A DNA stretch of 45,667 nt from Pseudonocardiaceae bacterium (lineage in GTDB: Bacteria; Actinomycetota; Actinomycetes; Mycobacteriales; Pseudonocardiaceae), in the NCBI GenBank assembly GCA_050699655.1, contig JBOHFJ010000001.1, positions 1 to 45,667 of the forward strand, given 5' to 3'. The notes under the pieces were generated by a model. It worked only from the letters and a program-made list of their open reading frames with translations, did not search any database and was not told the origin of the DNA. Below are positions 1-43,951 of the stretch, piece by piece. The stretch's first letter is position 1. Each line of letters starts with the position of its first letter. A program made the position numbers and the translations under genes.

Positions 1-187
1 ACAAAAACAGACGCCAACACCGGCGTGTCCGTTGACCAACAGAAGGGAGATCACCATGCTCACTAACCAGACCTGGCGGTCCCTAGGTCATGGCAAACCG
101 CTGGTCCCATCACGCTGGCAAGCGACAAGCAGGCAACAGATTCGACATCACCTGAAACATGACCACGACAGAAACTACCGCAAATTA

Positions 188-1555
188 TCAAGAAACCCAA
201 GTGGTTTGACCGAGGCGATCCAAAAACTTCAAGGGCTCACGCGCATCCTTCCCTTGGAACTTGAAGAGCCGCGCTGCATGATTTACAATATCCGTCGCGC
301 GGCCAGCCCTGCCAGACATATTTAAGATAATCCAAATTTGTGGGTGGAACTGACGAACTATCAGCTTCTTCAGCCAGGTGGACTGAGTTCCAGCCGCCGC
401 CTTGCCTGCCTTGATTAGTTCTGGGGGAATCATTGGGATAACTGGCCGAAGGCTGGCGCTAGCGATATCAACAGTTGCCGAAACCGCATCGGTGGCGGTT
501 TTCGTGAGTGACGCAATATTTCCCGAAAGTGCCGATATTCGACTTGAGAGTACCTTTTGGTCACCCAGGAAGATAGCTTCGTGAAATTCGGATCGATGTA
601 AACGGTATCTGGTAGCAGCCCGCCGAAACCCGGCCAACACCCTCGGGATCTCGGCAGGAGTTTTGACGCTAGCGAGCACCGCCTGGAGCCAGAATGGCGC
701 ACGAACCTGATGCGGTTCGGACCGAACTAGCTCGGCCCAAGCTTCCTGAAGCCACGCTTCTGGGGACGCTGAATTTAACATAGCAGCTCGGGCTCCTTGC
801 GCCCGGGCAAGCAACATTGGCGACCGTAAGCATCCTCCGACATAACGTATCTCAACCTCACGTTCTGAATCACTGAGCATTGCTTGCATTGTTTGAGCTA
901 GACGTTCATAGAATAGAGCCTTCAGGTCGTTTTCTAAAATGACCGGCCCAAGATCACGACCCGGCAGCCATCTCTCCTCGTTCGGCCGGAATATCGTCCT
1001 CCTATGTTCGTAGGCGGACGGGGAGTTGTAGCGCAACATTTTTTGATACCCATCCATAAAATCATGGGATGGAAAACTTGTTTGCGGAAGCAGGTGCTTC
1101 CAATGCCGCTTGAGTTCGGTTAACCAGAAGGGAGGGACGTCTGAGTTGCTCGCACGCGTCAACTCATCGATCGCCCATCGGTAGTGGCCTTCAAGCAACG
1201 TACTGAAGGAACTCGATGGGATACCACTGCCTTCGCCTTCATAAGGGATGCCTCGTATCACCTCTTCAAGGCCCAGCGTCTCAGCTATTCCTGTATCATT
1301 GGGTATCACCAGAATCCGGTCATAAAAGATCACCGCAGCAACGAGTGCGCCAAGATTGACAAGCGCCGTGAATGGCTCACGCACACCCCGGGAAGACGAC
1401 AACAAATCGACACTGCTTCGAACGGTTGTCCAATCGAGAATGGCGACCGAGATATACGACTTCTTCGGCAGGCCAACATATGAATTGAGGGCGCTGCGCA
1501 TCACCCGCAGGTCGTCCACAGTCGTTGGGGAAGCCGAATTTTTTGGTAAGTCCAC
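188..1555 (-). CDS. Hypothetical protein (455 aa), second gene of a low-GC two-gene cassette; function unknown
   Basis: Long ORF with a GTG start at 1555..1553, in a stretch visibly AT-richer than the rest of the window, so it is not a GC-driven shadow ORF. It is co-oriented with and 90 nt downstream of 1646..2398. I found no Walker, DEAD, GAGxS, HxH or other catalytic signature by eye. Confidence 0.55.
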   Translation of the reverse strand: MDLPKNSASPTTVDDLRVMRSALNSYVGLPKKSYISVAILDWTTVRSSVDLLSSSRGVREPFTALVNLGALVAAVIFYDRILVIPNDTGIAETLGLEEVIRGIPYEGEGSGIPSSSFSTLLEGHYRWAIDELTRASNSDVPPFWLTELKRHWKHLLPQTSFPSHDFMDGYQKMLRYNSPSAYEHRRTIFRPNEERWLPGRDLGPVILENDLKALFYERLAQTMQAMLSDSEREVEIRYVGGCLRSPMLLARAQGARAAMLNSASPEAWLQEAWAELVRSEPHQVRAPFWLQAVLASVKTPAEIPRVLAGFRRAATRYRLHRSEFHEAIFLGDQKVLSSRISALSGNIASLTKTATDAVSATVDIASASLRPVIPMIPPELIKAGKAAAGTQSTWLKKLIVRQFHPQIWIILNMSGRAGRATDIVNHAARLFKFQGKDAREPLKFLDRLGQTTWVS

Positions 1556-1645
1556 AACCCCGTCACAGCTTCGATTTTTTGTTCGACGAGAAGGGCTTCG
1601 GCGGTAGGCGGGCGCTCCGAGGGGTCGGCCGAAAAACGTGAAATG

Positions 1646-2398
1646 TCAAGTCGCGGTTTCATGATTTTCCTCTTCCGAAATGAGCCTGGCCATTAAATGG
1701 TACTCAGGAGAATCTGGCTCGAGACCCGCGAGATACACCAAGTCGGTCGCGTCTTCCCATGACAAGGACGCGTTAATCACCTCGATCGCAGAGGCTGGAG
1801 ATCGGAGCGATTTCAGGTACGTATCGAGCGACGATCCCAACACTCGCATATGCAGGCGAACAAGAGACTTAACCACCTCGCTTGGCTGACCGTCACCGGG
1901 ACACGGTATCTGCAAGAAATACTCGAAGCTTCTATCTTCTATAAGACCACAAGGAGGCGACAGTTGAGTTAATTGCCCCAGCTCAGGACTGGCGCAAAGG
2001 TAATCCAGATCTTCAACCACCAACAGAAACCGAGGGCGTCCCAGAGGCAGCGCTACGATAAAGCGCGCAAGTTGCACCAGTGAAAATGGAACAACCGTGG
2101 CACCGACGTGCAGTACCACCCAGTCCGCCGTTTCCGCTTTCTCCTTAACGGTATCTAATAGTATCGCAGCATCCGCGTTTGACCCGATGTAATTACTGAC
2201 GCGAATCATGGCCACATGCTCAGCCGACCGGTCCCCCACCTTGGTCAGCGAAGAACCTTGATCAGATAGAATTTTCGCAATGATCGACACGGGCTGGCCG
2301 TCCTCGATCACGATACTCGTCAGATTAGCGGCCCTGGGCAAGATTTCGCGACAAAATCGCTCACGCTGAACTGTGGCGAAACCCAACTTTAGAGCCAT
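1646..2398 (-). CDS. Hypothetical protein (250 aa), first gene of the low-GC cassette; function unknown
   Basis: ATG at 2398 is preceded by GAGAGGAG with a 6-nt spacer. That is a better start than the GTG at 2425 used in the ORF track. The sequence alternates hydrophobic-strand and helix segments and has a Walker-B-like FLLVVEDLD stretch, but no P-loop. Confidence 0.55.
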   Translation of the reverse strand: MALKLGFATVQRERFCREILPRAANLTSIVIEDGQPVSIIAKILSDQGSSLTKVGDRSAEHVAMIRVSNYIGSNADAAILLDTVKEKAETADWVVLHVGATVVPFSLVQLARFIVALPLGRPRFLLVVEDLDYLCASPELGQLTQLSPPCGLIEDRSFEYFLQIPCPGDGQPSEVVKSLVRLHMRVLGSSLDTYLKSLRSPASAIEVINASLSWEDATDLVYLAGLEPDSPEYHLMARLISEEENHETAT

Positions 2399-3610
2399 CG
2401 GATGCTCCTCTCTGTCACCAGCCACAGTAACGGGATCGAGCCAACAGTTGCCTAACTTGTAGCGACGCTTGGGCGCTACAAGTATGAAAGTTGAGTCAAG
2501 TTTCAGCCGGCCATCCGAGCCTAGTTGGTGTACTCAGTGACGTGCCGGTCGATCGCACGGAGGACTTGACGCAAGGTACAGCAGCAAGGCGGGCGGGTCG
2601 TGAGTTACAAGTAGAAGGGGCCACCGGGGCCGGTCAGTACGCATGGCGATCTCTCTTCTTTTGGTGACACACCGGTGCTGGTTGGATGCATTGCGTGACA
2701 AGGATATCAACATCCTGCGGGATTCTTAACATATAACAGGAACCTACCACTTGAGGCGGGCGACCGCCACATGATTATCTAGACGAGTGGCCACGTATAG
2801 ACTGCCATCCGATCGGTGCAGACGGTAAAGATTCCAGTGCGCGCTGCATGCGGACACTATGGCGAGAGCGTGCTGTTGCGCCGACGACCCCTTTCGATTG
2901 TGCAGTATCCGCTCTAGCGGGCCACAGCCACGCGGTTACTCACCGGGATCACATCCTGCATCATCGTTGGCGAAGCCGTCTGAGAATGCTCGGTGGGTCG
3001 GGATATGAGCCGGTTCTGCCGTTTCAGCTCACAGTCAGCGACACCACGCTAATGGCTCAACGCGCCGATCCACGACTTTCCGACCTTGATCCGAAACCTC
3101 AACCGCACAATCGGCACCGCACGTCGGGACGGTGGCGACAAGCTGCGCCACGGCACGCAAGACGTAGCAGACCAGGATCATGGTCTAAATCATTCAACTT
3201 TGATCAACACGCCAGGCACTCCCTTATCCGGATCCCTGCCACCGCCCCGCTCCGCTGAGGATGACGACGTAGTGCCGCTCGGCGCCGCTGAGCGTATAGA
3301 TCAAGTCCGGGCCTGGCGAGTTGGGTTGACCTTGCCGATCGGCGCCGCCACTGTGCCGGGGTCGGGCTAGGTCACGGCCTCCGCTGATTCTTGGGCGAAG
3401 TCGCGCGGGAGGGCCGTGGCCAAGCAGCGCGTGCAGCACCGCCATGAAGCGGCGCTTGCCCGAGCCGAACGAACCGGACAGAACGCGGCCCGGCTCTCCC
3501 CCGTGCCAGTCTCGGCAGTGGGGACGGCCACGATGATCATGTCCACGCGCCGCATGATCTGGATCTCAATGGCTTGTACTCCACGTGCGAGATCGAGCAG
3601 ATGCGCGGGC

Positions 3611-4045
3611 TCAGGCAATGGAATTCGCCAGCGTCACCAGGCGGTCATACGACTTGCACGGACAGAGCGGGATGAGCGACCTCTCCCTGATGTAGGCGGC
3701 GATCGTCGGAGAGTCGGACTCCGTGTACTCCGGCACGCGCCCAGCCTTGGTCACCTGCTGGAGGGCCTTCTTCGGCTGATCGATGAGCTCGACGTCTCGG
3801 GGTTGGCGCGGCAGCTTGCCCTTCCAGGCGCGAGGCCGGACCGCCTCGACCGCGTCGGGGAAAAGAAACCACCACGCCTCAATGGCCTGCACGGGTACCA
3901 CGGGCTGTCCGCCCATCGTGGTGAGCTGCCGCGCGAGGTTCGCGGCGACCGTGCCATCGGGATCATGGCCGTCCGCGTCGCGGTGCACGACCACCGCTGC
4001 GACGCGGCCATTGTTGGCCTCAAAGGCCTGTACTGTCCGCCGCAA
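3611..4045 (-). CDS. DUF4276-like (Toprim-related) protein, probably 5'-damaged; partner of the upstream ATPase
   Basis: VVVHRDADGHDPDG and QAIEAWWFLFPD resemble the acidic cluster and the hEFEaLLF-type motif I remember for DUF4276, and the gene sits directly downstream of an AAA_21-type ATPase. The only canonical in-frame start is TTG at 4045. An ATG at 4137..4135 overlaps the ATPase stop (ATGA) but is in another frame and stops after 15 codons. The N-terminal VEGxTE-type region is not recognisable. Confidence 0.4.
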   Translation of the reverse strand: MRRTVQAFEANNGRVAAVVVHRDADGHDPDGTVAANLARQLTTMGGQPVVPVQAIEAWWFLFPDAVEAVRPRAWKGKLPRQPRDVELIDQPKKALQQVTKAGRVPEYTESDSPTIAAYIRERSLIPLCPCKSYDRLVTLANSIA

Positions 4046-4133
4046 CTCGTCGACCCAATCGCGAACGGTGTCCGGCTTTGCCTCACGGGTCAGTGACGCC
4101 GGGCGGCGGAGGGGCTCTGACGGGCGCTGCTCG

Positions 4134-5302
4134 TCATGCCGGCACGCCGCGGATCACACCCGAGAACCACAACTCTCCCGGCCCCCAGTCGGAGGCCTGC
4201 ACGGCGCGGGCGATCTCGTCGGCCGAAGCGGCGGGAATGAGGGAGGCGCCGGTATCCGAGTCGCGGTCGCAGACGATGATCTCGTCCGGGCGTAACCGGT
4301 TCACCAACGTGGGCGAGTGTGTCGCCGCGAGGATCTGGGTCCGGCGGCTGGCGGCGCGCAACCGGTCGAGCAGAACGTCCATCGCATAGGGGTGCAGGCC
4401 GTGGTCGATTTCCTCAATCGCCATGAACGGAGGCGAATCCGGCTCATGCAGGGCTGCGAGCAGCGCGAGCAACCGCACGGTGCCGTACGAAGCGTCCGCA
4501 AGATCGATCGGTGCGGCCACACCGCGCTCACGAAGCTGCACGGACACAGCCTTCGCGGCTCCCCCGACCGGTACAAGCTGCACGCTCTGCAGGCCGGGGA
4601 GGCAACGAGCAAGCTCCTGCGTGAGCAGCTCCCACGAATCTGGGTCGCGCGTCCTGATGCGGTTCAACGCATCAGCCAGGTTGCTGGCGTCCTGGGCGAT
4701 CGTCGCTCCATATTCGCGGGCGGGCAGACGCGCCGCTGACACATCCGGTTCGAACACGAGGATCCGGGAAGGAACTCGGTGAAGCTCCGGATCCCCAACC
4801 CACCCTCGCTGTCGGACAACTTCGGGAGGGTCGCGAGCCCGGTTGTCTGGCTGCTCGCGAGGCTGCGGAAGAAGGTCTCCTGCTCGTCTTCGTAGAAGGT
4901 CACCCGATCACCGCTGACCGTGATGCGCCGACCACGGCCGCCCCTCCGCTTGAAAGTGAACTCCTCCTGGCGTGAGATCGACTTACCATGTCTTGCCAGC
5001 CGCAACTGGTACTGATCGGGTGCGTTCTCGCTGGAGTTAGCGGTGACGAGGCCCTGGATGGTGAGCTCGACGGCCCCAGGCCTGGCAGATTGGCGCTGGA
5101 TGTGGTCGAAACCGTTCCACTCTTGCAACGTGGCCGCCAGGTCGAAGCGCACCGTCGTGGCCAGGAAACGCAGCACGTTGAGCACGTTGGTCTTGCCGGA
5201 GCCGTTCGGCCCGATGAGAACATTCAGCGGGCCAAGCGGCAAGTCAACCGCAGCCAGCGAACAGAAGTTCCGCGCCTGGATGCGCGTGACAGGGAGCTTC
5301 AT
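4134..5302 (-). pseudogene. AAA_21 / SMC-like ABC-type ATPase (AbiL/PARIS-AriA-like), split by a frameshift
   Basis: The N-terminal ORF 4664..5302 has Walker A GPNGSGKTN and an RBS GAGGAGAGGGG before ATG 5302. The C-terminal ORF 4134..4757 has signature-like SYGTVRLLALL, Walker B FMAIEEIDHGLHP and ATHSP. The two ORFs overlap in different frames, and the total span of 1169 nt is not a multiple of 3. The frame switch is near 4758-4780. Confidence 0.75.
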
Positions 5303-5401
5303 GCTTGACCCCTCTCCTCGGTGTCGCTGCCATCATGTCGCGCGGCGGCGCACCCCGTGGCCTCGGCGTCGTGTTGCGAAGTGACGCTGTCGGTTTTGTG
5401 G

Positions 5402-6250
5402 CTAGACAAGGTGGGGGCGGGGTTGGCAGTGGGGGCAGGTGTAGGAGGAGCGGTTCATGAAGGACTCGCGCTGGATCGCGGTGCCGCAGCGGGGGCAGGG
5501 CCGGCCGGCCTGCCCGTAGGCGGCCAGTGAGCGGTCGAAGTAGCCGGAGGCGCCGTTGATGTTGACATACAGCGCGTCGAAGGAGGTGCCACCGGCGGCG
5601 AGCGCCTCGGTCAGCACGTCCGTGACGGCGCGCAGCAGGGTGCGTCCTTGCGCGGCGGTCAGCGTCGCGGTGGGCCGCGCCCCGTGCAGCCGAGCCCGCC
5701 AGAGCGCCTCGTCGGCGTAGATGTTGCCAATTCCGGACACCAGGGTCTGGTCCAGCAGCGCGCGTTTGAGGCCGGTGCGCCGCCGCCGAATCCGGGCGAG
5801 CACCGCATCCCGATCGAAACCCGGGTCCATCGGGTCACGGGCGATGTGCGCCACCGGGGTGGGCAGGCCATCGACCACATCCGCCACCGACAGCCCACCG
5901 AAGGTGCGCTGATCGATAAAGCGCAGCTCAGGGCCATCGTCGGCGAACCGCAACCGCACCCGCAGGTGCGTCTCGTCGGCGGCGCCGGGTGGCTGGATGC
6001 GCATCTGCCCGCTCATGCCCAGATGGGCCAGCAGCGCCTGCGCGTCACCCAGCTCCAGCCAGAGGTACTTGCCGCGGCGGCGGGCGGCACTGATCAACCG
6101 GCCACCGAGACGGGCGGCGAAATCAAGCTCACCGGCGAGGTGACGGCGCACCGCGCGGGGGTGGCGCACCTCGACATCGGCCACCGTGCGCCCGGCGATG
6201 TGTTCGGCGAGGCCGAGCCGGACGACCTCGACTTCGGGCAGCTCAGGCAA
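5402..6250 (-). CDS. mutM: Formamidopyrimidine-DNA glycosylase (Fpg/MutM)
   Basis: PELPEVE N-terminus, H2TH region and C-terminal zinc finger CPRCG...CPHCQ. I place the start at TTG 6250..6248, so the mature protein begins Pro-Glu-Leu-Pro-Glu-Val-Glu. The track ATG at 6292 would add 14 residues and overlap rnc. Confidence 0.95.
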
Positions 6251-11736: not shown

Positions 11737-12957
11737 TCAGTTGATCATCAGGCATGTGTCCCATCCGGAGATCGGCGGCGCGGTTCGGGCGGCGGTGTGC
11801 AGTGCGAGCGCGAGACCGGCATTGCCTTCCAGGAGCCCGGTGCTGTGGCTCGGCGGCCGGATGAGTAGCTCGGCCAGGTGCGGCAGAATCGCGGCCAGGG
11901 CAGGGGTGATCGCGTCGGCGGCGGCACGAACGGCGATCTGGTACAGCCCGGCCCAGCCGTGGCACAGGCTGGTGTCGATGATCTGGTCGAGCTGGGCGGG
12001 GTCGGACAGGCAGGCAGCGAGTGCATGCTCGGCCAGGTGCTGGCGGGTGATGTCGTCGGTGGCGATGGCGGCCAGTTGCTGGGCGCGGCTGAGTCCCGGC
12101 GTCCCGTAGCACCACGAGGGCCGCATCGGGCCCGGCTGGGCGGTTCGGCCCGTGCGCAGCTCGTCAAGGGTGAGCCATTGCGGCCACCACGCTCCCGCGT
12201 CACCATCTTGGCGCCAGGTATCCAGAAAGGCGCAGATACCTCTGATGGCGTCCGGCTGCCCGTCCACAGTGATCCCTGCCCGCAGGCGCTGGGAGAGTAG
12301 GGCGAGCGGCCCGCCGATGCCGTGCGCCACGCCGAGGTTCAGGTGCCCACTGGGGAAGCCGGCTGAGGTGGTGACGTTGGGGTCGTGGGCGGTCCACCAG
12401 CCGGGCAGGGTCTGGCCGTCGACGCGCGCTGGTTCGGTCAGGCGGACCAGGTACGTCAGGATCCGGCCGAGGGCGTCGTTGCCCGGGGCGTGGGCGAGCA
12501 AGTGCGCGCCGATCCCGGTCAGGCCGTGCAGCAGGTCGTATTCGGCGAAAGCCGGGTACTGGCCGCTGTCGGCGCGCTGCCCCGCGAGGTCGATCCTTCG
12601 GTGTGCCAGCGCGCTCACGTGGGCGTCGATCCCCGCCAGCATGGCACCGTAGCGTGCGATCCTGTCGGCACCGGCCGCGTGCAGAACGAAAGAGATCGCG
12701 GGCACCCCGAAGTACAGCCCGGCGGTGTCGGCGGCGCTGATCTCGTCACGGGTGGCCGCCTTCACCCAGCTGTGCGCGGTGCCCCAGCTTCCTGCGCCGC
12801 TGTGGGCGCGTTCGATGTGCAGCAGCGCGATCCCCGCAGCACCCTTGGCCAGCGACTGTGCCCGCGAGCGCAGTTCAGCGGTGAGCAGTTCCGGCACCGC
12901 TAGGCGCTGGGCGAGCGCTTCCGCGACTGCGGGCGCGGAGCGGGTTGAGGTGCTCAC
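11737..12957 (-). CDS. lanC: Lanthionine cyclase LanC
   Basis: GVAHGIGG, SWCYGTPG and SLCHGWAG zinc-ligand motifs. GTG at 12957 overlaps the lanB stop (GTGA). The 85 upstream codons of the track ORF lie inside lanB and are Arg/Pro-rich. Confidence 0.9.
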   Translation of the reverse strand: MSTSTRSAPAVAEALAQRLAVPELLTAELRSRAQSLAKGAAGIALLHIERAHSGAGSWGTAHSWVKAATRDEISAADTAGLYFGVPAISFVLHAAGADRIARYGAMLAGIDAHVSALAHRRIDLAGQRADSGQYPAFAEYDLLHGLTGIGAHLLAHAPGNDALGRILTYLVRLTEPARVDGQTLPGWWTAHDPNVTTSAGFPSGHLNLGVAHGIGGPLALLSQRLRAGITVDGQPDAIRGICAFLDTWRQDGDAGAWWPQWLTLDELRTGRTAQPGPMRPSWCYGTPGLSRAQQLAAIATDDITRQHLAEHALAACLSDPAQLDQIIDTSLCHGWAGLYQIAVRAAADAITPALAAILPHLAELLIRPPSHSTGLLEGNAGLALALHTAARTAPPISGWDTCLMIN

Positions 12958-15900
12958 GGCGCCTCCCTGGGTTCCTGGGCGATCCAACTCAGGGCGGCGG
13001 CGCGGGCGAGGTGGTGGCAGGCCCGTTCGGTCTCCGGGGCGATTCCGACCATCCGGATGCTGTGCAGGTGCAGCACAGCGGGCAGCACCAAGTCTGGGTC
13101 GATCTCGCCGGTAGTGGTGATCGTCTGGCGGTACGTGGTGAGCGCGGTGCGTCGTCGGGCCCACGTGGTTGCGATGTGTTCGCCACCGGGTACGGCGCGC
13201 AGCGCGGCCCACCGATCACGCGGGTTCGCCAGGTGGATCGCTTGGTCGTGGACCTCCCGGGCGGGCGCCTGGGCCGGGGTCTTGTCGACGTGGTCGATCA
13301 GCCAGCGCATGCCGTCACTCACGCTTCCGGTGAGGGACGTGGTCAGGTCGACCAGGCTTGCGGCGATGATGGCGTGCTGGTGCGGGGCGCCGCTGCCCCC
13401 GGTGTGTGTCAGCTGCGCGATCGCCGCCGCCGAGTCAGCGTCGAACACCGACTCGGCGGCGGCCATCGCCGCGCCACAGCCGAAGCGTCCAGTCTCCGGG
13501 TAGTAGGTGTCCACCTGCACTTGGCCGATGAGGCCGAGGCGCCGCAGACCGGTGGCCCAGGCACCGACACGCTGAGCGATCTCGCCGAACGCGTCGGCGC
13601 CAGACAGTCGGATTCGCAGGAGTAGATGGTGCTCGGGGTCCTGATACCGCAGGAACCACCACTGCGGCGGGTTGTCCCCTGTGGACAACAGGCATGGGAG
13701 ATGGGTGACGAGAATGGCGGTGTGCCGGTCCGGGTGCCCGTACAATTTCACGAACAGCCACTCGCTACTGCCGGGCAGGTGCCCGTGTTCGCGGCTGGTC
13801 GTGCGGATTGGGGAGGACCGTCGCGGGACGGGGGGCCACACAGGCTTGCTGGTGGACGCCAAGGGCACGACGATTTCGTGGGCACGCCCGTCGAGCCACC
13901 CGAACGCGTCGGTGTCCGGTGCTTCGCGCACGGTGACGTGCCCGGTACGGTCCAGGTCAGACCGCAACAGGTGCAGGTGTGCGGGCTCGTCCAGGTCCAG
14001 GCGTATGCGACGGTCGTCAGCACCGAGGTAGACCGCATCCGGGACGCGTGCCCGGTGCCGCCAGTCCGCCAGGCTTTGAACCCATTCCGGCCACGGGGCG
14101 CTGTGTCCCGGAAGGTTAGTGGCCGTCAGAGTCCAGCGAGCCGGGGACAAGGTCGTGCGCCGGTATCGGATTCTGGGCAGGAACGGCAACCGGTGAGCCG
14201 CTCCCCAGGAGAATGGCCCGCACGCGGCGGCCCGCGCCTTGGTGATCTCGCAGAGGAACCGTAGGAGTGGATGCGCGGCGTTGGTGAGCTCCACGGCGCT
14301 GAACACTGTGGGTTCCACCGGCTGCCCCCGCGACAATGACATCAGGTACAGCCGCTGGGCATCGGCGCTCACGGCGATGTCATCCAGCGGTATCACGCCG
14401 CCGCCGGTGTGGTGCTCGGCTAGGGAGACGAGGTGCGGCAGGACCGCAGGACTGCGGGTGACGTTCTCGGTCCGCGTGTAGAGCGGGGGACACGACACCT
14501 GTACCGACAGCGCGCCGTCGTTCACCGTGGGCAGCCGCGCGTACGCGCCGACCACGCGGTCACGGTCCCCGGGGTCGAAAAGGTCGAGAAACCGCCCGGT
14601 CATGGTTCCGACCGCACGGGACACGCCAACGACAGCGAGAGCGAACTCGCCCCGGTCGACTGCGCCCCGCGTCGGCGCATGAACGCAGAAAATCAATTCG
14701 GTGTGCGGCTGCGCCTGCGCCTTCGTGAAATCTTTAGCCATCAGATCCGCAATCAGCTGGTCATCGAAAACGACTTCGATTCTCTGATCCATCGCGGCCT
14801 GCTGCGCCAGAGCCAACAGCCGCATATCCCGCTCGGACAGACCCGACACAGACAGCTCAAGACGCGAGTCCCGATACCCGGCGGGAAACCCGAGCCCGGA
14901 GTCGGCGTTCAGGATTTCCAGGACGGGGACGACGGCGCCGATCCCATACCTTTCGAGGAACCGCAAATGGAAGTCCTTCCACCCGGGATAGCCGAACGGG
15001 TACGGCGTCAGGTGTGTGAGTGCCGCCGTTGCGGTTTCGGCTTCGCGCGCCACTGACTGCGGCAGTACCAGGGTGCAGTCGACTCGAAGGTCAACCACGA
15101 GCGGTCGCTCGGTCATGGAGACGGCCGCCATCCGCCGCGACGCAGAGCTTCGCAGGTCACGTCCCACGGCGGGCGACAACACACGGTTGTGGCGGGACAG
15201 TTCAGCGTGGACCTCGCGAAGCTCCTGGAGGAGGAGCGCCGCCCGGGGCACCTCCTCGGCGCCTATCACGGTCAACTTCCCGAGAACATAGGCCAGCGGA
15301 TCGGTCACCGTCATGGGGGGACGCAGGCTGGTGACCAGGATGCGCTGAGCCACCAGCTCGGCCAGCATCCCCTCTATCACCGACTCCGGTGTCCCGGGGA
15401 AGCCAGCCGTCAACTTTGCGGTCAGGTCACTGACGCGGATGGGCGACCGGGCGGCCTGCCTGACGGTCTCGACCGCCCTGGTGTGACGCACCGAAACCTC
15501 CGCCGGAGCGCTCTGGCCCGACCCGGCGGGCTGCTGTTGGCAACCCACCACTAGCCTCCCATCACGGACGAAAGCCAGGTTGTTCAACACGACCAGCAGC
15601 CGACCCCGCAGCTCTGGGCACGTCTCCAAGCGAGTGATCACACCCGCCAGCCACACGGCGTCAACCCGCGCTACAGCGTGGTGATCCTCCCCGTAGCGCA
15701 CCGCCAGTTCGGAACCGAAATGAGCTGGCGCCACCCCGGCGAACAGGCCGAATGGCGTCGCCCGGCTCGTCATCCGCAGCAGATACCGGATCACGGACAC
15801 CACAGCGCGCCGCACCTGGCGCGCCTGCTGACGGTGCCCGGTACACACCTCACGAACCCGGCGGGCCAGCACTGGGCTGGCCACCTCGACGGCCGCCGCG

Positions 15901-16061
15901 ATCGCCTCCTGTGCCCACACCTGGTCCAGCCAGCGGACCCACCGCGCCACCTGCTCATTCGTGCTGCCGGTCAGGTCCGGCCACGGCAGAACATCCAACC
16001 CGGACATACGGGTGGCCACCCGCACCATGGCCTCATCAACGACCCTGTACAACCGCAACAC
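12954..16061 (-). CDS. lanB: Class I lanthipeptide dehydratase LanB (full length: glutamylation plus elimination domains)
   Basis: 1035 aa. N-terminal Lant_dehydr_N-like region (ASPVLARRV..., RATPFGLFAGV) and a C-terminal SpaB_C region (WLFVKLYG...WWFLRYQDPEHHLLLRIRL). Confidence 0.93.
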   Translation of the reverse strand: MLRLYRVVDEAMVRVATRMSGLDVLPWPDLTGSTNEQVARWVRWLDQVWAQEAIAAAVEVASPVLARRVREVCTGHRQQARQVRRAVVSVIRYLLRMTSRATPFGLFAGVAPAHFGSELAVRYGEDHHAVARVDAVWLAGVITRLETCPELRGRLLVVLNNLAFVRDGRLVVGCQQQPAGSGQSAPAEVSVRHTRAVETVRQAARSPIRVSDLTAKLTAGFPGTPESVIEGMLAELVAQRILVTSLRPPMTVTDPLAYVLGKLTVIGAEEVPRAALLLQELREVHAELSRHNRVLSPAVGRDLRSSASRRMAAVSMTERPLVVDLRVDCTLVLPQSVAREAETATAALTHLTPYPFGYPGWKDFHLRFLERYGIGAVVPVLEILNADSGLGFPAGYRDSRLELSVSGLSERDMRLLALAQQAAMDQRIEVVFDDQLIADLMAKDFTKAQAQPHTELIFCVHAPTRGAVDRGEFALAVVGVSRAVGTMTGRFLDLFDPGDRDRVVGAYARLPTVNDGALSVQVSCPPLYTRTENVTRSPAVLPHLVSLAEHHTGGGVIPLDDIAVSADAQRLYLMSLSRGQPVEPTVFSAVELTNAAHPLLRFLCEITKARAAACGPFSWGAAHRLPFLPRIRYRRTTLSPARWTLTATNLPGHSAPWPEWVQSLADWRHRARVPDAVYLGADDRRIRLDLDEPAHLHLLRSDLDRTGHVTVREAPDTDAFGWLDGRAHEIVVPLASTSKPVWPPVPRRSSPIRTTSREHGHLPGSSEWLFVKLYGHPDRHTAILVTHLPCLLSTGDNPPQWWFLRYQDPEHHLLLRIRLSGADAFGEIAQRVGAWATGLRRLGLIGQVQVDTYYPETGRFGCGAAMAAAESVFDADSAAAIAQLTHTGGSGAPHQHAIIAASLVDLTTSLTGSVSDGMRWLIDHVDKTPAQAPAREVHDQAIHLANPRDRWAALRAVPGGEHIATTWARRRTALTTYRQTITTTGEIDPDLVLPAVLHLHSIRMVGIAPETERACHHLARAAALSWIAQEPREAP

Positions 16062-16076
16062 CCCCAGGGCCGCCAG

Positions 16077-16094
16077 GTCGGGCTGGTGCCCGAC
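16077..16094 (-). terminator. GC-rich stem-loop between lanA and lanB (possible partial terminator/attenuator)
   Basis: gtcgggc-tggt-gcccgac gives a perfect 7-bp stem and a 4-nt loop, about 20 nt after the lanA stop. There is no U-tract. Confidence 0.35.
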
Positions 16095-16115
16095 TGGTTA
16101 TCGGGATCAAGCAAC

Positions 16116-16298
16116 CTATTGGAAGCTGACGCAGGCGCTTTCGCAGGTATGGCCACAGTTGTCGCTGGTGCTTCGCATCAGCTCGGCGTCCACCGGAGCG
16201 GACTCGACGATGCTGACGTCGAGATCGAACTCCGGATCCACTGCTGTCGTGCTCGGTACTACAGTTTTCGCAACTACCGAGTGTGTCTGGATTGTCAT
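16116..16298 (-). CDS. lanA: FxLD-family class I lanthipeptide precursor (LanA)
   Basis: 60 aa. AGGAGG lies 6 nt upstream of the ATG. The leader contains EFDLDV (FxLD / FNLD-box). The C-terminal STSDNCGHTCESACVSFQ is rich in Ser/Thr with 3 Cys. The gene sits immediately upstream of lanB. Confidence 0.85.
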   Translation of the reverse strand: MTIQTHSVVAKTVVPSTTAVDPEFDLDVSIVESAPVDAELMRSTSDNCGHTCESACVSFQ

Positions 16299-16360
16299 AC
16301 GGATCCTCCTCGTTTGATGGTGGTGTTCCGAGTGGCCTGGCCTCGGTCAGGACGCCGCTG

Positions 16361-17569
16361 TCAGGGCCAGGAGATCACGACCCGGGTGTGCTTTTTGTCG
16401 ATGACACGACCGTCGGGGAGGTCCGCATCCGGGGTGGCTGCTGGGTGGGCCCCAATACGCGCGTTCAGGCTGCTGCCGTCCCAGGACTGGATATGCCGGA
16501 CCATCTGGTTAACGAGTTCCCGGGCGGCTGAGCCGTGCCCGTATGCCCCGAACTCGAATCGCTGCCTGTCGGGGGTGACCGGGCGCAAACCGAGGTAGGC
16601 GAGGTTCCCCCCCTCCACGGCCGTCGGGACACCCAAGGGCCACGCGTGAGCGACGATGCCGCAATCTACGGCCTCCCGCTGCGCGGTGAGGCGACCGAAA
16701 TTCGGCAGGGTGACGGCCAGCCACAGGTGAAGGCCATCGAACCGCTCGTCGCTACTGAGCATCACCTGCGACCATGCCTGCACCCTCGGCTGAAACAAAG
16801 TCTCCCGCAAAAGATCGGCGTCTACCTGCTGCCCGTCATCCACCCGAAGGCCGACCGCTTCCCCGTCGAGGAGGACCAGCCGCTCCCGGTACTCTCCGGC
16901 GCCTTGCATCGGCACAAAACCACACAGTTCGTAGGACCGGCTTGCCAGGTGCCCACCGTCGCGCTCGAACACGATCGAGCGGGTCAGGCCGCGCATCCGG
17001 AGGGGAACGACGAGCCTGCCGCCCTCGGCGAGCTGGTCAGACCATGCAGGGGGGATGTCCCAGGCCCCGGCGGTCACGATGATCCGGTCGTAGGGAGCAT
17101 AGTCAGGCACGCCGCCCTCAGCGTCAGCCAACACCACGGTGACCCGCCGGTAACCCGCCGCCGCGAGGCAACGCCGGGCCCGGTCCACCACGTCCGGGTC
17201 GATATCAACCGTGGTGACCTGCCCCTCCTCGCCGACCAGCTCCGCGATCAGTGCCGCGTTGTAACCACCCGATCCGATCTCCAGAACCCGCATGCCCGGG
17301 GCGAGCTGCGCCTGCTCCAGCATCATGGCCTGCAGCCACGGCGCGGATATCGAGCTGATGGTGATGCCGTGCTGGTCTCGCTTGGTGCGCACAGCATCTT
17401 GGGCATAGGACTGCTCCAGCGTTGCCCCGGGCGCGAACAGGTGCCGGGGCACCGTGCGGAACGCGGTCTCGACCTCGTTCGACACGATCGTGCCCTCGAC
17501 CACCATGTCGTCGGTGAGCCTGCTCCGAAGTTGCGCGGCACGGGCTGAATCCGCGATCACTTCTGGCAC
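16361..17569 (-). CDS. PIMT-like O-methyltransferase of the FxLD lanthipeptide system (LanS_A/OlvS_A-like)
   Basis: VPRHLFAP and VLEIGSGGYNAALIAEL, the protein-L-isoaspartate O-methyltransferase SAM motif, plus a roughly 190-aa C-terminal extension. GTG start with GAGAGGGGAA RBS. Directly upstream of lanA. Confidence 0.85.
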   Translation of the reverse strand: MPEVIADSARAAQLRSRLTDDMVVEGTIVSNEVETAFRTVPRHLFAPGATLEQSYAQDAVRTKRDQHGITISSISAPWLQAMMLEQAQLAPGMRVLEIGSGGYNAALIAELVGEEGQVTTVDIDPDVVDRARRCLAAAGYRRVTVVLADAEGGVPDYAPYDRIIVTAGAWDIPPAWSDQLAEGGRLVVPLRMRGLTRSIVFERDGGHLASRSYELCGFVPMQGAGEYRERLVLLDGEAVGLRVDDGQQVDADLLRETLFQPRVQAWSQVMLSSDERFDGLHLWLAVTLPNFGRLTAQREAVDCGIVAHAWPLGVPTAVEGGNLAYLGLRPVTPDRQRFEFGAYGHGSAARELVNQMVRHIQSWDGSSLNARIGAHPAATPDADLPDGRVIDKKHTRVVISWP

Positions 17570-17671: not shown

Positions 17672-19252
17672 TCACGCAGGCCGGTCCGGCGTAGGGTCTG
17701 GCTCCAGCTCTGTAGGGGTGGAAGCGGGATGGGTGCAGAACTCAGCCAGGTCATCCCGCAACGTGGTCATGGTGCAGGACGCGAGATCCGGCCGCCGGGC
17801 CAGCAGCGTGTGCAGAGACCGAGCCCGGCCAATCACCGGGAAAGTGCGGTATTCAGCTCCGGTGGAGTGCAGCACGGGGGCGAGGTGCTCACCGACGGCG
17901 TCTAACTCGCCTCGAGCCAAGTGGGCAAGCGCAAGATCGAAACGGGCGGAGGCGACATACATCACTTTGGGCCGGGACTCGGCGGAGAACTCGTCCAGGG
18001 CGGTACGCGCCCAGCCCAGGGCGGCCTCCAGATGCTCCGTGCCGCCAAGAGCGTAATGGGCCTCGCTAGCGTAATAAGCGGCCGTCCCGGCGTTGAAGCC
18101 GAAGATGCCCGGTTCATCGTCGGTGAGCTCAGTGGGGGCGCTCGCGGCGAGCGCCAGAGCCCGGCTGACCTCGCCGGGTTGACGACGAGCGGCGTTGGCC
18201 CGGGCCTGCTGGCTAGTCAACCTCAGCAGGGTGGTACCGCTGGTAGCGTCGGGCAGGGCGGACTCCATGAGCTGGGCAGCCTCGTCGTAGCAACCGTCCC
18301 AATAGGCGACGTTGGACTGGACCCAGCGGACGAAGACTCGTAGCGGGGTGTACCCGGACACCTCGGCGCAGTGCAGCGCGGTACGCGCATGGGTGTTCGA
18401 GGAGTGCGGATGCCCCAGGTTGAACGTGACGAGAGACAACAACCCGCAGACCTGCCCGGCGATCTTGTACAAGTCCGCGGTGTGGCGGGGCTGCTGGCGC
18501 CCGGCGATCAGGGTGAACACATCATCACGGGCACGGAGCAGACTCGCGAAGATGCTGGCGGGTGGGTCGATCTGCTCACGCCGGGCGATCTCAGCAACGT
18601 CGGCGGTCATCTGGTCGAGCACGTCGTCGTCAACGTTGGTGGTGGCGCTCCAGCGATGGAACTGGGCGGACTCCTCGGCGGCCATGATGACCTCCTCGCG
18701 GATCGGCGTACCGCGCGCGTCACAGCGCACGACGCGTCGGCTCCCCCAGGCCCCACCAGTGTCACCTCCCCCGCGCGCCACCACACGGCCGGGGTCAGCG
18801 TGCTCACCTACCGTAGCGCGGACAACGGGAACCAACGCCCCCGTCGTCACGGGTGCGGGTGGGTGACCGGTGGTGAGCAGGCTGCGGTCGGCTGGGGTGA
18901 GCTGCTCCAGATCATCAGCGTCGACCAGCTGGGACACCGTGCACCCATGCCCGAACGTCGCCGCGAGCTGAGCCAGGTAGCGCGGGCTGGGCGGGCTGCC
19001 GCCGTGCGGCCAGGCCTCGAACTCGCTGACCCGATTGTCCGACAGCTTCGCCCCCGGATGCGCGGTGTTGTACCGCTGCGCCACCTTCCACTGCGGCCAC
19101 CCCAACGCATGCCGCCACGCCACCCTCGGCCGCAAATTGAACCGCCGACCCAGCTCCCCGGCGATCTGGGACACCGAGCACCCCCACGCCCGCATCCGAT
19201 CCCGAAGCTGATCACGTTCGGCCTTCACCGAAGTCCCCGCCCTGCGCGGCAT
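17672..19252 (-). CDS. HTH (XRE-like) transcriptional regulator with a C-terminal TPR-like helical domain
   Basis: N-terminal CSVSQIAGELGRRFNLRPRVAWRHALGWPQWKVAQRYN...SEFEAWP HTH region, then a roughly 350-aa all-helical region. ATG 19252 is chosen; the upstream track extension looks non-coding. Confidence 0.75.
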   Translation of the reverse strand: MPRRAGTSVKAERDQLRDRMRAWGCSVSQIAGELGRRFNLRPRVAWRHALGWPQWKVAQRYNTAHPGAKLSDNRVSEFEAWPHGGSPPSPRYLAQLAATFGHGCTVSQLVDADDLEQLTPADRSLLTTGHPPAPVTTGALVPVVRATVGEHADPGRVVARGGGDTGGAWGSRRVVRCDARGTPIREEVIMAAEESAQFHRWSATTNVDDDVLDQMTADVAEIARREQIDPPASIFASLLRARDDVFTLIAGRQQPRHTADLYKIAGQVCGLLSLVTFNLGHPHSSNTHARTALHCAEVSGYTPLRVFVRWVQSNVAYWDGCYDEAAQLMESALPDATSGTTLLRLTSQQARANAARRQPGEVSRALALAASAPTELTDDEPGIFGFNAGTAAYYASEAHYALGGTEHLEAALGWARTALDEFSAESRPKVMYVASARFDLALAHLARGELDAVGEHLAPVLHSTGAEYRTFPVIGRARSLHTLLARRPDLASCTMTTLRDDLAEFCTHPASTPTELEPDPTPDRPA

Positions 19253-19517
19253 CGCCCACCCCCCAGCACTCATATGCAGGACCACACGGTAACCCCAGCC
19301 ACCGACAAAACGGGCCACCCCGCGACCTGATCGGCCGGGAAGATTCCCCGTCAGCGGCGGGTTCATCCAGCTCAGACAGGCCGAGCAGGTCGGGCGAATG
19401 TTCCCGGCCACCGATCCTGGCGGCTGGAGTCGTGCCACATGACCGACGCGACCACCAACCGAGAGTCGAGAGCTTCGTCCGCGACGAGGGCAATCCGATC
19501 ACAAGACGGTAGGAAGC

Positions 19518-33055: not shown

Positions 33056-33324
33056 CGGTGCCTCCCAGAACCCGTTCCAGTGGCGCTTCAGCTGTCCCCC
33101 ATGCCGCCTGCTCCAGATCTCTCCAAGGATGCGGGGGGCGATACGAGCAAGAGCATAGACGCCAGTGAGCGGCGGTAGCCGCAGCCGGCCGCTGGCCGTG
33201 AGCGCCGCAGCCCGCCAGCCGCACTTGCACCACGCTTGCACCCTGGCTCCTAACCTGATCATGACTCGGTCTCACCGGATATTAAGGAGCCCTCGCGCGC
33301 TGATCAAGTTAGGAGCTGGCCGGT

Positions 33325-41472: not shown

Positions 41473-41490
41473 CGGCGCGCGCCGCACAAC

Positions 41491-43761: not shown

Positions 43762-43951
43762 AGCTTTCCCCCCGGCCTGTTCCCCTAGCGCTTCAGTCGT
43801 TCTCCAGTGGCCCTGGACACACTTCGCAGCACAGGCTACCCAGGACACGGGAGCGACAATGGCCGAGAGCGTAGACGTCACGAGTGGCTGGTTAAACGCC
43901 TGTCCATCCTCGGCACACAACAATCATTCCCCAGGGGGGTGGCGCTGTCCG

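What the first reader, a model, noticed from the sequence alone, without database searches (positions are those of the whole stretch)
1..2800. Orphan low-GC two-gene cassette (250 aa + 455 aa) at the edge of a defence-island-like region
The first 2.8 kb or so is visibly AT-richer than everything to its right. Lines I sampled are about half G+C, while the rest is clearly GC-dominated. It carries two co-oriented ORFs with good translation signals (GAGGAG 6 nt before ATG 2398). I cannot place either protein in any family by motif. The 250-aa protein looks like an alpha/beta fold with a Walker-B-like FLLVVEDLD but no P-loop. The 455-aa protein is mostly helical in its C-terminal half. The cassette sits directly beside a frameshifted AAA_21 ATPase/DUF4276-like pair and a BrxC-like stub. 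Uncharacterised anti-phage systems typically accumulate in that kind of neighbourhood. The left border is outside the window.
Basis: partly seen in the sequence, partly recalled or inferred. Interest (0 to 1): 0.65.

Follow-up and report, generated by a model that had tools for sequence, protein, structure and literature searches.

The report
Foreign two-gene cassette, likely defence module
A horizontally acquired pair of overlapping genes (a dead AAA+-like protein plus a roughly 490-residue protein with no recognisable fold) sits in the wreck of a phage-defence island in a Pseudonocardiales genome; it is a plausible but unproven new defence module, and here its larger gene is broken by a one-base frameshift.

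Summary
Window 1-2500 has 53% G+C against 68.6% elsewhere (z about -5.4), and GC3 is 0.55 against 0.80-0.92.

Both ORFs lie on the minus strand: small 2398-1646 (250 aa) and large 1555-188 (455 aa). The 455-aa ORF is a mis-reading. The real gene starts at ATG 1662 and overlaps the small gene by 17 nt. A one-base deletion, best placed in an A6 run at 1539-1544, breaks it; adding one base restores 491 aa.

The pair is rare, not orphan. The large protein's family has 288 representative clusters among 1.84 billion proteins. It has one hit in 185,579 species genomes, none in plasmids, phages or IMG/VR, no Pfam, NCBIfam, PHROG or PADLOC match, and no fold match.

The small protein models as an AAA+-like fold without a Walker A motif. 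It occurs only in the closest clade, always directly upstream with the same overlap.

Both genes are under purifying selection. The cassette is repeatedly GC-poor relative to its flanks and lies beside transposases, toxin or defence genes.

Here it abuts a BrxC/PglY stub and a frameshifted HEC-01 pair. The best reading is a mobile conflict/defence module that is pseudogenised here. Function is untested.

The parts
1646..2398 (-). Small gene, 250 aa, intact. Its predicted fold is AAA+-like (alpha/beta core plus a helical lid) and it has no Walker A motif.
   Evidence: ORF. AF2 gave pLDDT 76 and pTM 0.73. Foldseek against the PDB hit NSF-D2, ClpA/C and NorQ/CbbQ at E 8e-5 to 1e-3 with TM up to 0.54. 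No G-x4-GK[ST] motif is present. Homologues at 30-38% identity lie directly upstream of large-family genes.
188..1662 (-). Large gene, frameshifted. The N-terminal frame runs 1662-1501 (a 53-codon ORF) and the main frame runs 1555-188 (455 aa). An intact version would be 491 aa. It belongs to a rare unannotated family.
   Evidence: The frame-2 translation MKPRLDISRFSADPSERPP... matches the N-termini of homologues. Inserting one base restores a 491-aa ORF scoring 670 bits against the family profile. AF2 gave pLDDT 73.7 and pTM 0.77. There was no fold match in the PDB or BFVD.
1539..1544 (-). A6 run (T6 on the + strand), the most likely site of the one-base deletion that breaks the large gene.
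   Evidence: Inserting one base anywhere in 1522-1563 restores the ORF. The profile score is highest in this run, by only 1-5 bits.
1646..1662 (-). 17-nt overlap between the stop codon of the small gene and the ATG of the large gene, suggesting translational coupling.
   Evidence: Sequence. The same 17-nt overlap occurs in L002, L004, L010, L011, L014 and L015; L005 has 8 nt.
2404..2409 (-). Shine-Dalgarno GAGGAG, 5 nt upstream of the small gene's ATG.
   Evidence: Sequence.
11..26 (-). Terminator-like hairpin followed by a T-run, about 160 nt downstream of the large gene's stop codon.
   Evidence: This is a consensus match only.
2399..3300 (.). About 0.9 kb of low-to-intermediate G+C (0.51-0.61) lying upstream of the cassette. 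It has no recognisable gene or RNA and is probably part of the imported segment.
   Evidence: Composition. ORF fragments gave no Pfam or PADLOC hit. No Rfam or tRNA hit. Not conserved in the homologous loci.
3386..3484 (-). BrxC/PglY stub covering profile positions 68-100 of 1240, including GSFGSGK. The rest of the gene is missing, and the break coincides with the drop in G+C.
   Evidence: PADLOC BrxC E 5.7e-9. Composition.
3611..4045 (-). HEC-01B, a DUF4276/TOPRIM-like protein, 144 aa.
   Evidence: PADLOC HEC-01B E 1.6e-18.
4134..5302 (-). HEC-01A, an ABC-type AAA_21 ATPase, split by a frameshift into ORFs 4664-5302 and 4134-4757.
   Evidence: PADLOC HEC-01A E 1.7e-40 (profile 5-190) and 6.2e-74 (profile 195-400) of one 402-position model. 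The shift is not in a homopolymer.

Best explanation
The first ~3.3 kb of the contig is horizontally acquired DNA carrying a bicistronic, translationally coupled operon.

**Gene 1 (250 aa).** It adopts an AAA+-like fold that has lost the Walker A P-loop. It therefore most likely acts without hydrolysing ATP, as a regulatory, sensor or scaffold subunit. This parallels the role proposed for the inactive STAND/AAA+ ('iSTAND') modules of BREX and MoxR-vWA systems.

**Gene 2 (491 aa when intact).** It is the conserved core of the module, with an N-terminal alpha/beta domain and a C-terminal helical domain.
- Family-wide invariant residues are Asp41, Asp79, Arg244, Arg311 and Arg318. Asn209 and Arg212 are nearly invariant.
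- It has no transmembrane segment.
- It is most likely a cytoplasmic effector or enzyme acting on a phosphate-bearing or nucleic-acid substrate.

**The module as a whole.** It behaves as mobile conflict (anti-phage or abortive-infection type) cargo. It is very rare and patchily distributed, repeatedly GC-poorer than its hosts, and sits next to transposases, toxin-antitoxin genes and defence genes. Here it sits where the body of a BREX/Pgl brxC gene should be, beside an 'Hma-embedded' HEC-01 pair.

**State in this genome.** A one-base deletion truncates the large gene. The copy is probably a recent pseudogene, like the neighbouring HEC-01A and BrxC.

**Shown:** foreign composition, operon structure, frameshift, conserved pairing, purifying selection, rarity, absence of any known family or fold for the large protein, and the P-loop-less AAA+-like model for the small protein.

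**Inferred:** the defence role, the sensor/effector division of labour, and the substrate type.
For: - **Foreign origin.** GC z is -5.3 to -5.5 and the tetranucleotide distance is 0.53 against 0.18 +/- 0.03. GC3 is 0.55 against 0.80-0.92.
- **Recurrent low G+C.** The homologous cassette is 9-15 G+C points below its flanks in L002, L004, L007, L011, L016 and L020.
- **Operon structure.** The 17-nt overlap is conserved in 7 loci. The small gene is always directly upstream in the close clade. In L008 only the last ~18 codons of the small gene survive, which indicates a secondary deletion.
- **Real genes.** dN/dS is 0.12-0.24 for unsaturated pairs.
- **Rarity.** There were 12 word-index hits in 5.8 billion proteins and 288 representative clusters in 1.84 billion. 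One genome in 185,579 species has it, a Sorangium. Plasmids, phages and IMG/VR gave nothing.
- **Not a known family or fold.**
- **Small protein.** Foldseek matched AAA+ ATPases. The motif E-D-G-Q-P occupies the P-loop position, and D33, G34 and Q35 are invariant.
- **Context in this window.** HEC-01 plus a BrxC stub.
- **Context in other loci.**
  - PDC-S02 in L010.
  - PemK toxin in L014/L015.
  - RiboL-PSP HEPN in L002.
  - CHAT-TPR proteins and IS110 in L011.
  - DDE and IS110 transposases in L004 and L007.
  - A BCS1-like AAA ATPase directly upstream and a STAND/HEAT NTPase downstream in L021.
- **Literature.** HEC-01 is described as a candidate embedded in BREX-like 'Hma' systems (10.1101/2024.01.29.577857). 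Inactive P-loop modules are proposed as sensors in defence systems (PMC12839542).
- **The frameshifts are probably genuine.** Nine long ORFs scanned elsewhere in the window (1035, 1149, 2715, 821, 810 aa and others) give full-length domain matches. An independent Logan assembly has the same sequence.
Against: - No phage-challenge or toxicity data exist, and no known defence model is hit.
- Four loci (L001, L008, L009, L024) show only metabolic or uninformative neighbours.
- Most contigs are short metagenome fragments, so the context statistics are weak and lack a background control.
- The AAA+ assignment rests on an AF2 model built from only 6 sequences. Its TM-scores are 0.35-0.54, and there is no sequence-profile support.
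- The large protein's catalytic or binding role is inferred only from conserved Asp and Arg residues. Foldseek and Pfam do not support any nuclease fold.
- The small partner is absent from the more distant clades.
- The copy studied here is broken.
- HEC-01 itself gave no protection in the one published test.
Confidence: 0.45

Rival explanations
1. A toxin-antitoxin or addiction module carried by a mobile element. The small upstream protein would neutralise a toxic large protein, and the pair would persist by post-segregational killing rather than by defending against phages.
For: - The bicistron has the smaller gene first and an overlapping stop/start.
- The large gene is the one disrupted in three loci: this window, L011 and L022. 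The small gene is never disrupted by a frameshift.
- Transposases and a PemK toxin gene lie nearby.
- The small gene evolves faster than the large one.
Against: - An apparently intact large gene persists without the small one in L008, where the small gene was deleted, and in all distant clades.
- Sizes of 250 + 490 aa and an AAA+-like 'antitoxin' are atypical for type II TA pairs.
- There is no DNA-binding domain for autoregulation.
- TA and abortive-infection defence are not mutually exclusive.
Confidence: 0.15
2. Passenger genes with a cellular role unrelated to conflict, such as a niche-specific enzyme with its chaperone-like partner, that happen to have been transferred into an island.
For: - No defence model is hit.
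- Several loci have metabolic or unrelated neighbours: L001, L009 and L024.
- The family is too rare and the contigs too short for statistics.
Against: - Recurrent low G+C relative to the flanks.
- Patchy distribution across Actinomycetota, Planctomycetota and Myxococcota.
- Frequent pseudogenisation.
- Repeated adjacency to transposases, toxins, STAND/AAA NTPases and defence candidates. These are the usual marks of conflict systems.
- No metabolic operon partner is conserved.
Confidence: 0.25
3. An accessory component of the neighbouring BREX/Pgl system itself (an 'embedded' gene pair). The remainder of that system would lie beyond the contig end.
For: - The cassette starts where the BrxC/PglY stub ends.
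- HEC-01 next door belongs to a class found embedded in BREX-like systems.
- BREX systems contain inactive P-loop (iSTAND) subunits.
Against: - None of the other 12 distinct loci with the family shows BREX genes.
- brxC is truncated to about 33 recognisable residues, so the host system is dead.
- The cassette's composition differs sharply from that of the BrxC stub and HEC-01.
- No BrxB model is hit.
Confidence: 0.07
4. An artefact. The low-GC end would be a chimeric mis-assembly of a MAG contig, and/or the ORFs would be non-coding and the frameshift a sequencing error.
For: - The segment lies at the very end of a metagenome-assembled contig.
- The frameshift falls in or near a homopolymer.
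- The Logan contig probably derives from the same reads.
Against: - An independent assembler joins window 99-5462 across the GC boundary into mutM.
- Both ORFs have homologues under purifying selection.
- An A6 run is short for an Illumina-type error.
- The rest of the contig has intact ORFs of up to 2715 aa.
- A sequencing error would affect only the 'pseudogene' statement.
Confidence: 0.05

Closest known systems
Inactive STAND/AAA+ ('iSTAND') modules of defence systems: BrxB/BrxF of BREX and the iSTAND of MoxR-vWA systems (PMC12839542)
   Same: - A small stand-alone P-loop-NTPase-fold protein that has lost the Walker motifs.
- It evolves fast.
- It is encoded next to an effector inside defence loci and is proposed to act as a non-enzymatic sensor or regulator.
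- Here the small protein models as AAA+-like, lacks a Walker A motif, evolves faster than its partner and lies in a BREX-derived island.
   Different: - No BrxB/DUF1788 or any PADLOC or Pfam model is hit.
- The model keeps a C-terminal helical bundle (helices at 158-249), which iSTANDs lack.
- It shows no three-stranded beta cap after strand 4.
- The partner is not PglZ or a vWA-peptidase but an unrelated protein of unknown fold.
Two-gene AAA+ ATPase + effector defence systems, e.g. IetAS, Dodola and TRIP13-type regulators (PADLOC models)
   Same: - An AAA+-fold protein is encoded immediately upstream of a larger partner.
- One distant relative of the large protein (L021) is preceded by a bona fide BCS1-like AAA ATPase. 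That ATPase weakly matches the IetA and TRIP13 models.
   Different: - The window's small protein has no Walker A motif and no AAA Pfam match.
- The large protein is not a protease or any other known effector.
- Neither protein hits an IetA/IetS or Dodola model.
HEC-01 (ABC ATPase + TOPRIM/DUF4276; Payne et al., bioRxiv 10.1101/2024.01.29.577857)
   Same: It is the immediate neighbour. It is likewise a two-gene candidate associated with BREX-like loci and is likewise frameshifted here.
   Different: The proteins are unrelated. HEC-01A and HEC-01B are host-like in composition (GC3 0.80-0.83), whereas the cassette is foreign (GC3 0.55).
Type II toxin-antitoxin operons
   Same: A bicistron with overlapping genes and the smaller product first, mobile and patchy in distribution, with the larger gene often inactivated.
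   Different: - The sizes are much larger than in typical pairs.
- There is no recognisable toxin or DNA-binding antitoxin fold.
- The large gene survives without the small one in several loci.

Membership tests
AAA+ ATPases (small protein) | ASCE-type alpha/beta core followed by a helical lid | tested here: met
   AF2 model with pLDDT 76. All 35 Foldseek PDB hits with E <= 1e-3 are P-loop NTPases, nearly all AAA+ (NSF D2, ClpA/C; one is the NLR NRC2), and NorQ/CbbQ follow just above that cut-off; TM-scores are 0.35-0.54. The model rests on only 6 sequences.
AAA+ ATPases (small protein) | Walker A motif G-x4-GK[ST] after strand 1 | tested here: not met
   The regex found none in 7 homologues. 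The loop after strand 1 reads (I/V)(E/D)DGQ(P/S)V, with D33, G34 and Q35 invariant.
AAA+ ATPases (small protein) | Walker B motif hhhhDE on strand 3 | tested here: inconclusive
   The motif RF(L/I)xVVE(D/R)LD has E129 and D132 invariant. In the model it lies on the fourth strand (123-129), and the third strand (93-98, WVVLHV) is followed by no acidic residue. No residue-level structural alignment was available.
AAA+ ATPases (small protein) | Match to a Pfam, NCBIfam or PDB sequence profile of AAA-type domains | tested here: not met
   No hit at E <= 1-10. hhalign against a BCS1-like AAA gave probability 0.06%.
BrxB-type iSTAND (BREX) | Match to a BrxB/DUF1788 model | tested here: not met
   No PADLOC or Pfam hit at E <= 1.
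BrxB-type iSTAND (BREX) | Eroded Walker motifs on a five-stranded alpha/beta/alpha core | tested here: met
BrxB-type iSTAND (BREX) | No C-terminal helical bundle, and a three-stranded beta cap after strand 4 (PMC12839542) | tested here: not met
   The model has six or more helices between residues 158 and 249 and no beta cap.
Known defence systems (PADLOC-DB 2.0) | Either protein matches a model of a known or candidate system | tested here: not met
   No families at E <= 1 for either protein. The distant member P0092 also gave none, at E <= 0.01. DefenseFinder and later releases were not available.
PIN-like nucleases (N-domain of the large protein; considered because of the hhhD(W/T)T motif at the end of strand 1) | PIN fold or profile match with 3-4 conserved acidic residues | tested here: not met
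   No PIN family appeared in Pfam scans of 63 members at E <= 1. No PIN structure appeared among the listed top Foldseek hits; the best E was 0.4. D41 and D79 are invariant and D60 and D67 nearly so, so a metal site is not excluded.
Integral membrane effectors (large protein) | At least one hydrophobic transmembrane segment | tested here: not met
   The highest Kyte-Doolittle 19-residue windows (1.2-2.2) lie mostly in the buried core helix and strand of the N-domain (DPFxALxDL..FYDR); in four members (P0019, P0036, P0045, P0058) the maximum lies in the C-terminal region. In the window protein the C-terminal region scores 0.4-0.6.
Type II toxin-antitoxin pair | Obligate co-occurrence of the two genes | tested here: not met
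   The large gene occurs without the small one in L001, L007, L009, L016, L021, L022 and L024. In L008 this follows deletion of the small gene.
Type II toxin-antitoxin pair | Toxicity of one product that the other product neutralises | not testable with these tools
   This needs expression experiments.
HEC-01 (neighbouring pair) | HEC-01A ABC ATPase plus HEC-01B TOPRIM-like protein, adjacent and co-oriented | tested here: met
   PADLOC E 6e-74 and 2e-40 for the two halves of HEC-01A, and 1.6e-18 for HEC-01B. The A gene is frameshifted.
BREX/Pgl BrxC (PglY) | A ~1200-aa ATPase | tested here: not met
   Only profile positions 68-100 of 1240 are recognisable, so this is a remnant.

The most novel reading that the evidence does not exclude
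The pair is a previously undescribed anti-phage (abortive-infection type) system. A Walker-motif-less AAA+-fold protein would sense infection and release or activate a ~490-aa effector that has a fold not represented in the PDB or BFVD. The effector family would be reused with other NTPase partners (BCS1-like AAA, STAND) in more distant lineages.
Probability: 0.35. Interest if true: 0.75.

Novelty: new variant of a known kind. Interest (0 to 1): 0.5.

Why it matters
If the defence reading is right, three things follow.
- It adds a new effector family, with no structural or sequence relatives, to the prokaryotic immune repertoire.
- It gives another case in which a catalytically dead P-loop NTPase fold serves as the regulatory partner. 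That theme has so far been proposed for BrxB-type iSTANDs but has little experimental support.
- The locus shows how defence islands turn over. A foreign cassette sits exactly at the breakpoint of a destroyed brxC gene, next to a decaying embedded HEC-01 pair, and has itself already acquired a frameshift.

If the defence reading is wrong, the result is still a cleanly delimited, rare two-protein family. It has a conserved 17-nt overlap and gives defined targets for structural genomics.

Tried and rejected
1. **Known families.** Pfam, NCBIfam, PHROGs and PADLOC scans of both proteins gave nothing. Pfam scans of 33 + 30 family members also gave nothing consistent.
2. **PDB sequence profiles.** Nothing was found.
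3. **Fold search with the large-protein model.** Foldseek against the PDB and BFVD gave a best E of 0.4 and TM of about 0.1. The ABC-exporter and MFS hits are long-helix noise.
4. **Membrane effector idea.** Rejected, because there is no TM-grade segment outside the buried core helix.
5. **PIN-like and HEPN-like readings of conserved motifs.** Neither fold nor profile searches support them. The His of the R..H-like stretch is not conserved in the distant clade.
6. **Programmed frameshift.** Rejected. All homologues are single ORFs, and the site is not a canonical X XXY YYZ heptamer.
7. **Phage or plasmid origin.** No match in INPHARED phages, PLSDB plasmids or IMG/VR for either clade or for the small protein.
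8. **Conserved upstream leader, RNA or mobile-element ends.**
   - No Rfam or tRNA hit.
   - No conserved non-coding block between loci.
   - Only chance-level repeats.
9. **Are upstream genes of distant family members (L016, L021, L024) diverged copies of the small protein?** No; hhalign probability is below 1%.
10. **Leftward extension.** Impossible, because the window is the whole contig and the Logan contig stops at position 99.

Full report
**1. The observation**

Composition:
- The left end of the window is strongly AT-shifted. G+C is 0.52-0.54 in 500-nt windows up to 2750 and 0.65-0.74 further right.
- In 1-kb windows the first 2.5 kb lies 5.3-5.5 SD below the remainder (0.686 +/- 0.028).
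- Its tetranucleotide profile is 0.53 L1 units from the rest. Other 3-kb chunks give 0.18 +/- 0.03.
- Third-position G+C is 0.56 and 0.54 in the two ORFs. It is 0.80-0.92 in HEC-01, mutM, rnc, coaD, pyc and the NRPS.
- At finer scale, an intermediate zone (0.51-0.61) runs from 2450 to about 3270, and host-like values resume at about 3300. The foreign segment is therefore about 3.3 kb, not 2.8 kb.

Genes:
- Both ORFs are on the minus strand: 2398-1646 (250 aa) and 1555-188 (455 aa).
- GAGGAG lies 5 nt upstream of ATG 2398.
- A terminator-like hairpin lies at 26-11.

Host: the contig belongs to a Pseudonocardiales/Pseudonocardiaceae MAG, judged from the L32 and CoaD clusters.

**2. The large gene is frameshifted**

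- Homologues are 482-494 aa and begin M-x-D-R-L-D-L-S-x-F.
- In the window that N-terminus (MKPRLDISRFSADPSERPPTAEALLVEQKIEAVTGLWTY) is encoded in another frame. It starts at ATG 1662 and runs into a stop at 1501-1503.
- The 455-aa ORF continues the alignment from about that point.
- Inserting one base anywhere in 1522-1563 restores a single 491-aa ORF. The profile score is highest, by a few bits only, in the A6 run at 1539-1544.
- ATG 1662 overlaps the small gene's stop codon (1648-1646) by 17 nt.
- The same 17-nt overlap is present in L002, L004, L010, L011, L014 and L015; L005 has 8 nt. This suggests translational coupling.
- The frameshift is probably real.
  - An independent Logan assembly spanning window 99-5462 has the same sequence.
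  - The nine long ORFs I scanned elsewhere in the window give full-length domain matches and show no internal break. They include a 2715-aa NRPS, a 1149-aa pyruvate carboxylase and a 1035-aa LanB-type dehydratase.
- Both assemblies probably derive from the same reads, so read-level confirmation is still needed.

**3. The pair is rare, not orphan, and the pairing is conserved**

Large protein:
- It has 12 word-index relatives among 5.8 billion proteins.
- An exhaustive profile search found 288 representative clusters among 1.84 billion (E <= 1e-3); 62 have E <= 1e-30.
- Two clades, the close 'DWT' clade and the distant 'DTTT' clade, are homologous over their full length (hhalign probability 99.95%).
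- Only one of 185,579 species-representative genomes carries it, Sorangium sp. So ce726.
- Plasmids, phage genomes and IMG/VR gave no match.

Small protein:
- It gave no word-index hit.
- The gene immediately upstream of the large homologue in L002 is 34% identical to it (E 1e-39).
- Profile searches recovered it upstream of the large gene in 8 further distinct places: L002, L004 (= L018), L005 (= L006, L019), L010/L017, L011, L014/L015, L020 and the P0017-P0006 contig; with the window that makes nine pairs.
- The one close-clade locus without it is L008. Its large protein is 61% identical to P0002. It still carries the last ~18 codons of the small gene up to the overlap, so this is a secondary deletion.
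- More distant members (L001, L007, L009, L016, L021, L022, L024) have no small-gene homologue.

Selection and decay:
- Both genes are under purifying selection. dN/dS is 0.12-0.24 where dS is unsaturated, and the small gene evolves faster.
- The large gene is also disrupted in L011 and L022.

**4. What the proteins look like**

Small protein:
- The AF2 model has pLDDT 76 and pTM 0.73, from a 6-sequence alignment. It is a five-stranded alpha/beta core followed by a helical bundle.
- Its Foldseek PDB matches with E <= 1e-3 are P-loop NTPases, nearly all AAA+ ATPases (NSF/Sec18 D2, ClpA/ClpC, Rubisco activase, ORC/Cdc6); NorQ/CbbQ follow at E 1.3-1.5e-3. E values run from 8e-5, with TM up to 0.54.
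- There is no Walker A motif. The loop after strand 1 is (I/V)(E/D)-D-G-Q-(P/S)-V, with D33, G34 and Q35 invariant.
In the model it lies on the fourth strand, so its equivalence to Walker B is unproven.
- No sequence profile links the protein to AAA domains.

Large protein:
- The AF2 model has pLDDT 73.7 and pTM 0.77. It has an N-terminal alpha/beta domain (to about residue 240) and a helical C-terminal half with a low-confidence stretch at 345-391.
- Foldseek found nothing in the PDB or BFVD (best E 0.4, TM about 0.1).
- No Pfam family recurs across 63 members.
- There is no transmembrane-grade segment.
- Residues invariant across 33 diverse members are A38, D41, F62, D79, W152, Y238, R244, P246, P287, W289, R311 and R318. 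Most of the corresponding positions, including D41, W152, R244, P246, P287, R311 and R318, are also invariant in the distant clade.
- An Asp/Arg-rich conserved set in a soluble protein suggests a phosphate-bearing or nucleic-acid ligand. This is inference only.
- One member fuses an N-terminal pentapeptide-repeat domain.

**5. Context**

In the window, the minus-strand order is:
rnc, mutM (core genes) -> HEC-01A (frameshifted) -> HEC-01B -> BrxC/PglY stub (33 recognisable residues including the P-loop) -> ~0.9 kb of non-coding low-GC DNA -> small -> large -> terminator -> contig end.

- The brxC breakpoint coincides with the G+C drop.
- HEC-01 was defined as a candidate embedded in BREX-like 'Hma' systems. 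It gave no protection in the published assay (10.1101/2024.01.29.577857).
- The island is therefore the wreck of a BREX/Pgl system with an embedded HEC-01. The foreign cassette landed in it, or replaced part of it.

Neighbours of the family elsewhere:
- PDC-S02 candidate, E 1e-52, in L010.
- PemK toxin in L014/L015.
- RiboL-PSP HEPN in L002.
- CHAT-TPR proteins, IS110 and a DDE fragment in L011.
- Two DDE transposases in L004.
- IS110 in L007.
- An AAA_22/STAND-like NTPase in Sorangium, L016.
- In L021, a BCS1-like AAA ATPase directly upstream and a STAND/HEAT NTPase downstream.

L001, L008, L009 and L024 are uninformative.

The cassette is 9-15 G+C points below its flanks in six other loci. 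That points to repeated recent transfer.

**6. Interpretation**

- The best-supported reading is a mobile conflict module. The large protein is the conserved core, and in this clade the Walker-less AAA+-like protein is its dedicated, translationally coupled partner.
- The closest functional analogue for the partner is the inactive STAND/AAA+ 'iSTAND' class (BrxB, BrxF, MoxR-vWA systems). These are proposed to be non-enzymatic sensors that switch on an adjacent effector (PMC12839542).
- Membership of that class fails. There is no model hit, the helical bundle is retained, and there is no beta cap.
- I put the defence/conflict reading at about 0.45. The rivals are a non-conflict passenger function (0.25), a TA/addiction module (0.15), a BREX accessory (0.07) and an artefact (0.05).
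- Whatever the function, this copy is probably inactive because of the frameshift.

**7. Novelty and score**

- Neither protein belongs to any described family or defence system that I could test, and the large protein has no detectable fold relative.
- The general architecture, a dead P-loop-fold partner plus an effector on a mobile island, is a known theme. I therefore rate it a new variant of a known kind.
- There is a 0.35 chance that it is a genuinely new defence system with a new effector fold.
- Interest is 0.5. It is a clean, testable candidate, but it is supported only by context and is pseudogenised in this genome.

Noticed in passing
window 4134-5302 (-): HEC-01A (an ABC-type AAA_21 ATPase) is split into two overlapping ORFs by a frameshift near 4750-4770. 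The shift is not in a homopolymer. Together with the BrxC stub and the broken large gene, three conflict-type genes within 5.3 kb are inactivated, while the long genes checked in the rest of the contig are intact.
   Followed up: partly
window 3370-3633 (-): The BrxC/PglY remnant appears to contain an internal frameshift as well. A second frame (RWRIPLPEPAHLLDLARGVQAIEIQ...) precedes the GSFGSGK frame. Only profile positions 68-100 of 1240 scored.
   Followed up: partly
window 12954-17569 (-) and 24295-25671 (+): A LanB-type lantibiotic dehydratase (1035 aa, PF04738 + PF14028) lies next to a PCMT-like protein O-methyltransferase, and a second PCMT-like gene lies further on. This looks like a class I lanthipeptide-type biosynthetic cluster. 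A 588-aa ORF at 17672-19438 has no Pfam match.
   Followed up: no
window 30797-43923: A bimodular NRPS (2715 aa: A-T-C-A-MT-T-reductase) lies at 33325-41472 (+). Two large SARP/BTAD-family regulators flank it at 30797-33262 and 41491-43923 (-). The NRPS region has the lowest G+C outside the island (0.615-0.64).
   Followed up: no
L021 924-6906: A distant member of the large-protein family is flanked by a BCS1-like AAA ATPase (PF08740 + PF00004) directly upstream and a 964-aa P-loop/HEAT-repeat (STAND-like) protein downstream. This suggests the family is reused with active NTPase partners.
   Followed up: partly
L008 2390-2460: A close-clade locus lacks the small gene but retains its last ~18 codons (..DSTVERLIEVVFDDGSH*) up to the conserved overlap with the large gene. 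The small gene was therefore deleted secondarily, while the large ORF stayed open.
   Followed up: yes
L011 10683-12180; L022 506-1997: The large gene is also split by frameshifts in two other loci. This could reflect recurrent pseudogenisation or long-read assembly errors; L011 comes from a 'contig_N'-style assembly.
   Followed up: partly
P0023 (849 aa, JGI metagenome): One family member carries an N-terminal pentapeptide-repeat domain of about 370 aa fused to the large-protein module.
   Followed up: no
window 1-99: The MAG contig and the independent Logan contig both end within 100 nt of each other on the left. This suggests a repeat, such as an IS element, just beyond the cassette, as seen next to homologues in L004, L007 and L011.
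   Followed up: no
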